From Shigella phage ESh7, in sequence record ON528720: 39,724 bases of DNA; one strand, 5' to 3'. Under the pieces are notes generated by a model. The model was not told the DNA's origin, searched no databases, and saw nothing but the letters and a program-made list of their open reading frames with translations. Numbering within the stretch: the first letter of the stretch is position 1; each line of letters opens with the position of its first letter. Both the position numbers and the translations under genes were made by a program. Shown here one piece after another: positions 19,992 through 20,791 of the stretch.

Positions 19992-20408
19992 ATGTACATT
20001 ACAAAGTGTTTACAAAACCACGCTGACAACTTTCAGCCGTCCATAGAGGACATTCTGGAAGCTGAGGCACTAGGTGTTGAACCAAAGGTAATTCCTGATG
20101 AGAACACTGTGGCGATGCTGAGCGATAGCGCTGTGTTGGCAATCGGTGGCAATCAGGGAGACCGAGTGTGGTTCCTTACCTCTAAGTACGTCCCACTGTT
20201 TACCTTGAAGGAGCGCTTAGAGTTTCGTAGACTTATAATTGAATATCGTAATAAGATGCTAAGCCAGTATGAGTCAATTTGGAACTTCGTTTGGGTTGGC
20301 AATAAGTCACACATTCGTTTCCTAAAGACCATAGGCGCTGTGTTCCACAATGAATACACAGGAGGTGGTCAATTTCAACTATTCACAATCACAAGGAGGA
20401 ACCCTTGA
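19992..20408 (+). CDS. 13: internal virion / assembly protein gene 13 homolog
   Basis: 138 aa, same as T7 gp13; synteny. Confidence 0.8.
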   Translation: MYITKCLQNHADNFQPSIEDILEAEALGVEPKVIPDENTVAMLSDSAVLAIGGNQGDRVWFLTSKYVPLFTLKERLEFRRLIIEYRNKMLSQYESIWNFVWVGNKSHIRFLKTIGAVFHNEYTGGGQFQLFTITRRNP

Positions 20409-20791
20409 AGAAGTGCAGCAAGTGCTCCGAATTGAAGGAGCTAACAGAGTTCTATAAGGACAAGACCAAACCTGACGGCCTGCGGTGTTCCTGCAAGGCT
20501 TGCCAAGGTGAGACCAAGAAGTCCTATCGAGTCATCAAGGATAGAAACCTTCGGCGTCTATATGGAATCGGTCTGAATGAGTATGAAGAAATGCTCGCTA
20601 AGCAGAATGGCGTCTGTGCAATCTGCGGTATTACCGAGAGAGTTGAGGGACGGGCGTTAGCGGTTGACCATTGCCACGCCACTGGCGCTGTTCGTGGTCT
20701 CCTTTGCTCTGCCTGTAACATCGCTCTTGGGAAATTCGAGGACGACACCGAGCGTCTTCGGAAGGCAATCACTTACCTAAGAGGAGAATAA
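20405..20791 (+). CDS. endonuclease VII-like / HNH-type nuclease with N-terminal zinc ribbon
   Basis: TTG start 6 nt after AAGGAGGA; CSKC...CSCKAC then CAICG...[27 protein letters not shown], the DHxH...RGLLCxxCN signature of the endonuclease VII fold. Confidence 0.7.
   Translation: [128 protein letters not shown]

What the first reader, a model, noticed from the sequence alone, without database searches (positions are those of the whole stretch)
20405..20791. Endonuclease VII-fold nuclease gene inserted between genes 13 and 14
In T7, as I recall it, gene 14 follows gene 13 within a few nucleotides. Here a 128-aa ORF with a good RBS (AAGGAGGA) and a TTG start fills the gap, overlapping the gene 13 stop (cTTGA) and ending 2 nt before gene 14. 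Its C-terminal half (CAICG...[30 protein letters not shown]) carries the signature of the T4 endonuclease VII / HNH His-Me finger fold, and the N-terminal half has a CxxC...CxCxxC zinc ribbon. A free-standing nuclease wedged into the structural gene block is typical of homing endonucleases. It could equally act as a branched-DNA resolvase alongside gene 3 endonuclease I, or as a nickase used in phage-phage competition.
Basis: partly seen in the sequence, partly recalled or inferred. Interest (0 to 1): 0.5.

Follow-up and report, generated by a model that had tools for sequence, protein, structure and literature searches.

The report
Mobile endonuclease gene 13.5 in T3-like phage
The ORF is real and is gene 13.5 of T3-like phages, an already annotated Endo VII-motif nuclease that comparative evidence shows behaves as a selfish, free-standing homing endonuclease gene jumping between phage genomes at the gene 13/14 junction; its cleavage activity has never been tested.

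Summary
Window 20405-20791 (+) is a 128-aa TTG-start ORF. It overlaps the gene 13 stop by 4 nt and ends 2 nt before gene 14. It matches Pfam Endonuclease_7 (E=1e-29).

The window is a Teetrevirus (T3-like) genome. The ORF is gene 13.5 of phiYeO3-12 (98% nt), already annotated 'endonuclease VII' and listed among the Endo VII-motif proteins in the 2018 F-CphI/DHHRN paper.

It is 41% identical over its full length to F-CphI, a characterised homing endonuclease, and keeps every residue shown essential there. It lacks the T4 Endo VII C-terminal region. The phage has its own resolvase (gene 3).

Mobility evidence:
- The gene is cleanly absent from 86 of 100 close relatives, including T3.
- Berlinvirus PP74 carries a 97%-identical copy in flanks only 67-71% identical.
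- About 65 nt of foreign gene 13 3' end travels with it.
- Decayed copies exist: a frameshift in PP74 and a 302-bp deletion in PcCB251.
- Two alleles share a near-identical catalytic half but have N-terminal halves only 65-67% identical.

Verdict: a free-standing homing endonuclease gene, already known as a gene. Cleavage and target site are untested. Modest interest.

The parts
19940..19957 (+). T3-type phage RNA polymerase promoter phi13. It drives the late transcript carrying genes 13, 13.5 and 14 onward. Gene 13.5 has no promoter of its own.
   Evidence: Exact match to TAACCCTCACTAAAGGGA; 16 such sites in the window against 0.02 expected. Same position as the annotated phi13 of phiYeO3-12. 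No sigma-70-like site in 19800-21500.
19992..20408 (+). Gene 13 (internal virion/scaffold protein gp13), the upstream neighbour. Its stop overlaps the 13.5 start codon.
   Evidence: Pfam Phage_T7_Gp13 E=1.6e-44; ORF list.
20336..20404 (+). The last ~69 nt of gene 13. This is a foreign-type flank that travels with gene 13.5 (co-conversion tract). The recombination crossover lies at about 20330-20340.
   Evidence: Window versus five empty-site Teetreviruses: 95.6-97.7% identity over gene 13 5' (19992-20335) but only 73-77% here, and 98.6% to phiYeO3-12. Berlinvirus PP74 and PcCB251 switch from Berlinvirus-type to this sequence at the same place.
20393..20400 (+). Shine-Dalgarno sequence AAGGAGGA for gene 13.5. 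In empty-site genomes the same AGGAGG serves gene 14.
   Evidence: Sequence; junction alignments.
20405..20791 (+). Gene 13.5: a 128-aa two-domain Endo VII-motif (DHHRN) endonuclease with a TTG start.
   Evidence: 97.9% nt identity to phiYeO3-12 gene 13.5. 41% identity, E=3e-29, full length, to F-CphI. AlphaFold2 model with mean pLDDT 94.
20414..20503 (+). N-terminal Cys4 zinc ribbon (C4, C7, C30, C33). Presumed DNA-binding or specificity module.
   Evidence: These four Cys are invariant in 61 homologues. The region aligns to Hpy99I residues 77-107. This half is only 65-67% identical between alleles A and B.
20543..20782 (+). Endo VII (beta-beta-alpha-metal) nuclease domain, residues 47-126. 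Structural zinc site is C71/C74 plus C101/C104.
   Evidence: Pfam PF02945 residues 47-126. Matches to T4 Endo VII and Hpy99I by sequence and fold.
20666..20719 (+). Catalytic core D88-H89-x-H91 ... R97 ... N105 (the DHHRN signature).
   Evidence: Invariant in 61 homologues. Aligned to T4 Endo VII D40/H41/H43/R54/N62 and to F-CphI D101/H102/R110/N118, which are experimentally essential.
20631..20791 (+). Segment nearly identical at the nucleotide level between alleles A and B, indicating a recently exchanged catalytic half. The mosaic breakpoint is about 20630.
   Evidence: Alignment. Over 20641-20791, 94-99.3% identity against 65-67% for the N-half, Fisher p=1e-12 to 1e-18. dS 0.03-0.18 against 1.1-1.6.
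20794..21387 (+). Gene 14 (internal virion protein B), the downstream neighbour. A variant associated with occupied genomes lies at 20820 (ATC versus ATT), suggesting the exchanged tract reaches about 27 nt into gene 14.
   Evidence: Pfam T7_gp14 E=2.3e-44. In the alignment, C at this site in 7 of 8 occupied genomes and T in 5 of 5 empty genomes.

Best explanation
Gene 13.5 is most likely a free-standing homing endonuclease gene of the Endo VII-motif (DHHRN, F-CphI-like) family. It sits as a selfish insert exactly at the gene 13/gene 14 junction of a T3-like phage.

Shown here:
- It is an intact two-domain protein: an N-terminal Cys4 zinc ribbon plus a C-terminal beta-beta-alpha-metal nuclease with all catalytic and zinc residues.
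- It is co-transcribed late from promoter phi13 and translationally coupled to gene 13 through a weak TTG start.
- It is dispensable and sporadically distributed.
- It has moved between phage genera together with about 65 nt of upstream flank.
- It decays after invasion.

Inferred mechanism: in a mixed infection the enzyme makes a nick or double-strand break at or near the uninterrupted 13/14 junction of a phage that lacks the gene. The phage recombination machinery repairs the break from the 13.5-carrying genome. This copies in the gene plus short flanks. The insert, and possibly the variant flank, then protects the carrier from self-cleavage.
For: Family and fold:
- Pfam Endonuclease_7 E=1.1e-29 and PHROG endoVII E=6e-44.
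- 41% identity over residues 2-126 to F-CphI, E=3e-29. F-CphI is a biochemically characterised homing endonuclease (PMC6083498).
- The residues essential in F-CphI (C84, D101, H102, R110, N118) correspond to C71, D88, H89, R97 and N105 here, and these are invariant in 61 homologues.
- The best solved-structure match is the sequence-specific dsDNA cutter Hpy99I, across both domains.
- The phiYeO3-12 orthologue NP_072072 is listed with a C-terminal motif in that paper's Table S1.

Dispensable and sporadic:
- 14 of 100 Teetrevirus-like records carry the gene and 86 show a clean gap.
- T3 and T7 lack it.
- The window's closest backbone relatives, Patroon and F1M1C, lack it.

Lateral transfer:
- Berlinvirus PP74 has a 97.2%-identical copy in flanks only 67-71% identical.
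- The high-identity block begins about 65 nt inside gene 13, at the same place where the window switches from Patroon-like to phiYeO3-12-like sequence.

Decay:
- PP74 has a 1-nt frameshift in the zinc ribbon.
- PcCB251 has a 302-bp internal deletion between TAAGG microrepeats.

Same junction occupied by diverged relatives:
- FE44 (Berlinvirus, 43% aa), Ro45lw (Kayfunavirus, 50-51%), RCIP0003 (44%) and an IMG/VR contig.

Other points:
- Purifying selection acts on the diverged half (dN/dS 0.2-0.3).
- A separate resolvase is present (gene 3, Pfam Phage_endo_I E=1e-80).
- There is no intron and no transposon-like ends.
Against: - No cleavage activity, target site or biased inheritance has been measured for any gp13.5. 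I found no experimental paper.
- Ordinary homologous recombination between co-infecting phages could move a passive gene flanked by conserved sequence, so transfer alone does not prove endonuclease-driven homing.
- The variant gene 13 3' end is not a demonstrated immunity change. The only substitution shared by both occupied alleles against all Teetrevirus and Berlinvirus empties (gp13 codon 122, TTT to TAC) also occurs in empty-site T7. FE44's allele sits in an unchanged flank.
- The PP74 frameshift could be a sequencing error.
Confidence: 0.8

Rival explanations
1. It is an accessory branched-DNA resolvase or debranching enzyme, a functional analogue of T4 Endo VII, working alongside gene 3 endonuclease I during DNA maturation and packaging.
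For: Shares the Endo VII catalytic motif and fold with T4 gp49. Expressed late with the structural genes from phi13.
Against: - Only residues 11-71 of the 157-aa T4 enzyme align, and the protein ends 14 residues after the motif, so the region C-terminal to the T4 motif has no counterpart.
- The motif is C-terminal, as in the 'endonuclease clade', not N-terminal as in the 'resolvase clade' (PMC6083498).
- The phage has an intact endonuclease I.
- 86 of 100 close relatives do without the gene, and copies decay.
Confidence: 0.04
2. It is a phage-versus-phage exclusion weapon or host-DNA nuclease kept for its benefit to the carrier. It cuts competitor or host DNA without copying itself into the cut site.
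For: Purifying selection on the protein (dN/dS 0.2-0.3). Two alleles with diverged putative recognition halves at one locus. This reading overlaps mechanistically with homing, since it also requires cleavage of DNA lacking the gene.
Against: - The gene itself has been copied into a different genus at exactly the same junction, with flanking co-conversion. That is the signature of homing rather than mere exclusion.
- Decay in PP74 and PcCB251, and absence from most relatives, argue against a strong benefit to the carrier.
Confidence: 0.08
3. It is a now-inactive or passive passenger (a moron-like gene) shuffled by ordinary homologous recombination between conserved flanks, with no endonuclease role in its own spread.
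For: T7-like phages recombine freely and the junction flanks (RBS, start of gene 14) are conserved across genera. No activity data exist.
Against: - All catalytic and zinc ligands are intact in the window copy and invariant across 61 homologues.
- There is purifying selection.
- At least four diverged Endo VII-type lineages occupy this one junction in different genera. That is hard to explain without site-specific targeting.
Confidence: 0.08

Closest known systems
phiYeO3-12 gene 13.5 (NP_072072; NC_001271 26688-27077), annotated 'endonuclease VII'
   Same: Same gene at the same junction: 97.9% nt and 96.9% aa identity, same TTG start overlapping the gene 13 stop, same flanking tract.
   Different: The window copy lacks one Lys codon (128 versus 129 aa) and has 4 aa changes. 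It sits in a different backbone, Patroon/F1M1C-like rather than phiYeO3-12-like upstream of about 20336.
F-CphI of cyanophage S-PM2, founding member of the DHHRN (Endo VII-motif) homing endonuclease family (Fang et al. 2018, PMC6083498)
   Same: Full-length homology (41% identity, E=3e-29) covering the N-terminal CxxC...CxxC ribbon and the C-terminal Endo VII motif. All experimentally essential residues are conserved. It is a free-standing gene next to its presumed target gene.
   Different: F-CphI lies beside the intron-containing psbA gene in a T4-like cyanomyovirus, and its cleavage site is mapped. Gene 13.5 sits between two virion-core genes of a T7-like podovirus, has no associated intron, and its target is unknown.
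T4 endonuclease VII (gp49), Holliday-junction resolvase (PDB 1EN7, 2QNC)
   Same: Same catalytic beta-beta-alpha-metal core: D40/H41/H43/R54/N62 and a Cys4 zinc site.
   Different: Only T4 residues 11-71 align. The motif is C-terminal here and N-terminal in T4. The T4 region C-terminal to the motif has no counterpart and an extra N-terminal zinc ribbon is present. The phage already has T7-type endonuclease I.
Hpy99I type II restriction endonuclease (PDB 3FC3)
   Different: Hpy99I has about 76 extra N-terminal residues that do not align, and is paired with a methyltransferase. Gene 13.5 has neither; its neighbours are gp13 and gp14.
Other 13/14-junction Endo VII genes of Studiervirinae: allele B (AP5 and Klebsiella Teetreviruses), FE44 13.5, EcoDS1/Ro45lw gp13.5, RCIP0003
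   Same: Same insertion point, same two-domain architecture and the same DHHRN residues.
   Different: Allele B shares a near-identical catalytic half but an N-terminal half only 65-67% identical, with a GTG start overlapping gene 13 by 14 nt. The others are only 43-51% identical in protein.

Membership tests
Pfam Endonuclease_7 (PF02945) | Profile match above the curated gathering score | tested here: met
   102.6 bits against a 23.6 cut-off, E=1.1e-29, residues 47-126 matching profile positions 2-81 of 82.
DHHRN / F-CphI-type homing endonucleases | Conserved D, H, H, R, N catalytic residues flanked by CX2-4C and CX2C zinc ligands | tested here: met
   D88, H89, H91, R97, N105, C71/C74 and C101/C104. 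Invariant or nearly so in 61 homologues. Aligned to T4 D40/H41/H43/R54/N62 and F-CphI D101/H102/R110/N118/C84.
DHHRN / F-CphI-type homing endonucleases | Endo VII motif at the C-terminus ('endonuclease clade' architecture) and whole-length similarity to F-CphI | tested here: met
   Motif occupies residues 47-126 of 128. BLASTP to F-CphI covers residues 2-126, 41% identity, E=3e-29. Orthologue NP_072072 is flagged 'C' in Table S1 of PMC6083498.
DHHRN / F-CphI-type homing endonucleases | The phage encodes a separate Holliday-junction resolvase, so the Endo VII-motif protein is not the resolvase | tested here: met
   Gene 3 at 4140-4589, Pfam Phage_endo_I E=1.2e-80. Criterion taken from PMC6083498.
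Homing endonuclease genes (general) | Sporadic presence or absence at one precise site among close relatives | tested here: met
   14 of 100 records occupied, 86 with a clean gap. Empty sites read gene 13 stop, 2 nt, gene 14 ATG.
Homing endonuclease genes (general) | Lateral transfer with co-conversion of flanking sequence; invasion-decay-loss cycle | tested here: met
   PP74 copy is 97% identical while its flanks are 67-71% identical. A shared ~65-nt upstream tract is present. There is a frameshifted copy (PP74) and a deleted copy (PcCB251).
Homing endonuclease genes (general) | Site-specific cleavage of the allele lacking the gene, and super-Mendelian inheritance in crosses | not testable with these tools
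   Needs biochemistry and mixed infections. No published data found.
T4 Endo VII-type resolvases (gp49 orthologues) | N-terminal catalytic motif followed by the C-terminal domain that (from my own knowledge of the T4 structure) builds the dimer and binds junctions | tested here: not met
   Only T4 residues 11-71 align. The query ends 14 residues after the motif. Foldseek aligns 89 of 157 columns. The motif is C-terminal.
HNH endonucleases (Pfam HNH / HNH_3) | Match to an HNH profile with the central Asn of H-N-H | tested here: not met
   No HNH family reported at E<=0.01; only Endonuclease_7 plus a sub-threshold DUF5532. The same superfamily fold is seen only distantly. By contrast, three other ORFs in the window do hit HNH_3.
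Hpy99I-like type II restriction enzymes | Adjacent cognate methyltransferase and the N-terminal ~76 residues of Hpy99I | tested here: not met
   Neighbours are gp13 and gp14. The alignment starts at Hpy99I residue 77.
Intron-encoded homing endonucleases | Embedded in a group I or group II intron | tested here: not met
   No Rfam family reaches its gathering score anywhere in the window. The ORF abuts coding sequence on both sides.
Transposable elements / insertion sequences | Terminal inverted repeats and a target-site duplication | tested here: not met
   Only short chance-level repeats in 20250-20900. The junctions show just the reused AGGAGG ribosome-binding site.

The most novel reading that the evidence does not exclude
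Alleles A and B are rival homing endonucleases competing for the same 13/14 junction. They share a recently exchanged catalytic half but have anciently diverged N-terminal zinc-ribbon and linker halves (dS>1). Each is linked to its own variant of the gene 13 3' end. If the N-terminal half sets specificity, each allele may cleave genomes carrying the other allele as well as empty ones. That would be a natural case of modular re-targeting and endonuclease-versus-endonuclease displacement at one locus.
Probability: 0.12. Interest if true: 0.55.

Novelty: already known. Interest (0 to 1): 0.27.

Why it matters
Practical value: gene 13.5 should be annotated as a putative free-standing DHHRN-type homing endonuclease, not as a 'recombination endonuclease VII' or an 'integration and excision' enzyme, both of which appear in current records.

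Biological value is modest but real. F-CphI is the characterised homing endonuclease of the Endo VII-motif family. The T7-like 13/14 junction offers a genetically tractable system: E. coli, Yersinia and Klebsiella hosts, natural empty sites, intact copies, decayed copies, and two mosaic alleles. It could be used to map a target and to test how the N-terminal zinc ribbon sets specificity.

The gene also marks a recombination hotspot inside the virion-core gene block. That matters for phage taxonomy and for engineering therapeutic T3-like and T7-like phages.

Tried and rejected
- Immunity substitution. I looked for a fixed 'immunity' change in the gene 13 3' tract. The only change shared by alleles A and B against all Teetrevirus and Berlinvirus empties is gp13 codon 122, TTT to TAC (window 20355-20357). 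Empty-site T7 also has TAC, and FE44's allele sits in an unaltered flank. I therefore treat the tract as co-transferred donor DNA, not as proven immunity.
- Berlinvirus origin of the tract. A megablast of PP74 gene 13 matched BA14 to position 401, which suggested the tract might be native to Berlinvirus. The alignment shows that BA14 and PYPS50 differ there, including a 3-nt indel, while PP74 carries the Teetrevirus-cassette sequence. Rejected.
- Intron association. No Rfam hits.
- Transposon ends or target-site duplication. None.
- IMG/VR survey. At least 593 relatives, but only 1 of the best 80 loci sits at a 13/14 junction. The family as a whole is not tied to this site; only the Studiervirinae lineages are.
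- Primary papers. The phiYeO3-12 papers I tried to open by id (PubMed 11222590, which I recalled as the genome paper, PubMed 15687205, which I recalled as a later phiYeO3-12 gene study, and PMC95087) are not held. What they say about gene 13.5 could not be checked. One search failed on a short term.
- Tools not used. The search of protein representatives and the metagenome and genome scans were not used, because the answer did not depend on them.

Full report
**Observation**

The ORF is exactly as described.
- It runs 20405-20791 on the + strand and is 128 aa with a TTG start.
- Its start overlaps the gene 13 TGA stop (cTTGA). AAGGAGGA lies at 20393-20400. The TAA stop is followed by CT and then the gene 14 ATG at 20794.
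- The neighbours are gp13 (Pfam Phage_T7_Gp13, E=1.6e-44) and gp14 (T7_gp14, E=2.3e-44).
- The ORF matches Pfam Endonuclease_7 at E=1.1e-29, residues 47-126, and PHROG 2633 'endonuclease VII' at E=6e-44.

**What the window is**

The window is a circularly permuted genome of a T3-like phage (Teetrevirus). It is 95-96% identical to Klebsiella phage Patroon and to phiYeO3-12 over 20 kb.

The ORF is phiYeO3-12 gene 13.5. RefSeq annotates that gene as 'endonuclease VII; homologous to bacteriophage T4 endonuclease VII'. Identity is 97.9% nt and 96.9% aa. An exact T3-type promoter, phi13, lies at 19940-19957. No sigma-70-like promoter lies nearby. The gene is therefore part of the late 13-14-15 transcript.

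**The protein**

An alignment of 61 homologues shows these residues invariant or nearly so:
- C4, C7, C30, C33: an N-terminal Cys4 ribbon
- C71, C74, C101, C104: the Endo VII structural zinc site
- D88, H89, H91, R97, N105: the catalytic residues

These map onto T4 Endo VII D40/H41/H43/R54/N62.

The AlphaFold2 model is confident, with mean pLDDT 94. Its best solved-structure match is the sequence-specific restriction enzyme Hpy99I, across both modules:
- phmmer E=3e-7, residues 3-126 aligned to 77-196
- Foldseek E=1.6e-5

T4 Endo VII matches only through its catalytic core (residues 11-71 by sequence; 89 aligned columns in Foldseek). The protein ends 14 residues after the motif, so the part of the T4 enzyme C-terminal to the motif has no counterpart.

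The closest characterised relative is F-CphI of cyanophage S-PM2. It is 41% identical over residues 2-126, E=3e-29. F-CphI is a biochemically proven homing endonuclease. It nicks and then linearises its target. C84, D101, H102, R110 and N118 are essential for its activity (PMC6083498), and all five are conserved here. That paper defines the 'DHHRN' family. It separates a resolvase clade (N-terminal motif) from an endonuclease clade (C-terminal motif, in phages that also have T7 endonuclease I). Its Table S1 already lists NP_072072, gp13.5 of phiYeO3-12, with a C-terminal motif. The window has an intact gene 3 endonuclease I at 4140-4589 (Pfam E=1.2e-80).

**Distribution**

A megablast of 19900-21400 finds 100 phage records.
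- 14 cover the insert. The other 86 align in two pieces with a clean ~392-bp gap.
- Empty sites read gene 13 stop, 2 nt, gene 14 ATG. Examples are phiSG-JL2, F1M1C, Patroon, RCF, Seera and T3. T7 has a 4-nt gap.
- The window's nearest backbone relatives are empty.
- The phiYe-F10 paper notes the same ~403-bp absence without interpreting it (PMC4786787).
- The AP5 genome paper lists its 13.5 as 'hypothetical' (PMC4283147).

**Mobility**

- Cross-genus transfer. Berlinvirus PP74 carries a copy 97.2% identical to the window's. Its flanking genes 12, 13, 14 and 15 are only 67-71% identical.
- Co-transferred flank. The high-identity block starts about 65 nt inside gene 13. At the same place (about 20336) the window switches from Patroon/F1M1C-type to phiYeO3-12-type sequence. 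Identity to empties is 95.6-97.7% over 19992-20335 but 73-77% over 20336-20404. Identity to phiYeO3-12 over that tract is 98.6%. Berlinvirus empties (BA14, PYPS50) show that the tract in PP74 is foreign to that genus. On the right, a variant at 20820 is associated with occupied genomes (7 of 8 occupied against 0 of 5 empty).
- Decay. PP74 has a 1-nt deletion that frameshifts the zinc ribbon, and the record annotates only a truncated CDS. PcCB251 keeps the first 55 nt and about the last 30 nt, with a 302-bp deletion between TAAGG repeats.
- Same junction, other lineages. Diverged Endo VII-type genes occupy the same junction in FE44 (Berlinvirus), Ro45lw and EcoDS1 (Kayfunavirus), RCIP0003 and an IMG/VR contig.
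- Not an intron or a transposon. There is no intron and there are no transposon-like ends.

**Two alleles**

Within Teetrevirus there are two alleles.
- Allele A: the window, phiYeO3-12 and PP74.
- Allele B: AP5, VAC1, mtp15, 6998, IME305 and KLB7.

| Segment | A vs B nt identity | dS | dN/dS |
|---|---|---|---|
| N-terminal half (20405-20640) | 65-67% | 1.1-1.6 | 0.21-0.31 |
| Catalytic half (20641-20791) | 94-99.3% | 0.03-0.18 | 0.15-0.16 (AP5, KLB7; zero nonsynonymous changes in VAC1) |

The difference between the halves gives Fisher p=1e-12 to 1e-18. The gene is therefore a mosaic. The putative recognition half diverged long ago and is under purifying selection. The nuclease half was exchanged recently.

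**Interpretation**

The best explanation, at about 0.8 confidence, is a free-standing homing endonuclease gene of the F-CphI/DHHRN type. Inferred steps: it cuts at or near uninterrupted 13/14 junctions of co-infecting relatives, and recombinational repair copies it in together with short flanks.

The resolvase reading is disfavoured for four reasons: the region C-terminal to the T4 Endo VII motif has no counterpart, the motif is C-terminal, gene 3 is present, and the gene is dispensable.

What is not shown: cleavage, the target site and biased inheritance. I could not identify an immunity substitution. The one candidate, gp13 F122Y, also occurs in empty-site T7, and FE44's allele sits in an unchanged flank.

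**Novelty**

The gene, its Endo VII annotation and its family placement are already public, so this is 'already known'. The comparative evidence for homing was not found in the searchable literature. That evidence is the cross-genus transfer, the co-conversion tract, the decay series and the A/B mosaic. It is useful but unsurprising for specialists.

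Noticed in passing
window 3706-4176 (+): A 156-aa HNH_3 endonuclease ORF (Pfam E=9e-11) is inserted between gene 2.5 (3004-3702) and gene 3 (4140-4589), overlapping the gene 3 start by 37 nt. It is absent from phiYeO3-12 (window 3703-4127 has no match). Only 12 of 260 matching phage records cover it, and several of those annotate it as a homing endonuclease. 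This looks like a second sporadic homing endonuclease gene.
   Followed up: partly
window 1253-1813 (+), stop at 1565-1567: The homologue of phiYeO3-12 gene 1.45 (HNH endonuclease) is split by an in-frame stop codon into ORFs 1253-1564 and 1568-1813. Only the second retains an HNH_3 hit (E=7e-11), and that hit starts mid-profile. This is probably a decaying homing endonuclease pseudogene.
   Followed up: partly
window 9731-10054 (+): An intact gene 5.3-type HNH_3 endonuclease (107 aa, E=1e-18) lies just downstream of the DNA polymerase gene. With 13.5, the 2.5/3 insert and the 1.45 remnant, this 39.7-kb genome carries four homing-endonuclease-like genes.
   Followed up: partly
window 33053-33281: The window is a circular permutation of a linear T3-like genome. 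The right end of phiYeO3-12 (39600) maps to 33281 and its left end (1) to 33053. This ~229-bp stretch is therefore the collapsed direct terminal repeat, that is, the physical genome ends.
   Followed up: partly
window 16565-16831 and 34710-34932: These two short stretches have no blastn match to phiYeO3-12. One lies downstream of the major capsid gene region and the other in the early 0.45-0.6 region. Content not examined.
   Followed up: no
L021 and L047 (IMGVR_UViG_3300045988_000688, 39404 bp): One T7-like IMG/VR contig carries two Endo VII-motif genes. One is at the 13/14 junction (51% aa identity to the query). The second is immediately upstream of gene 12, similar to the 'endonuclease' upstream of the tail tubular gene reported in Hafnia phage Ca.
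   Followed up: partly
public records matched (e.g. OL362281-OL362283): Several GenBank records call the 13.5 orthologue 'putative integration and excision endonuclease VII' or 'recombination endonuclease VII'. These annotations are not supported by the domain architecture or the genomic context.
   Followed up: no
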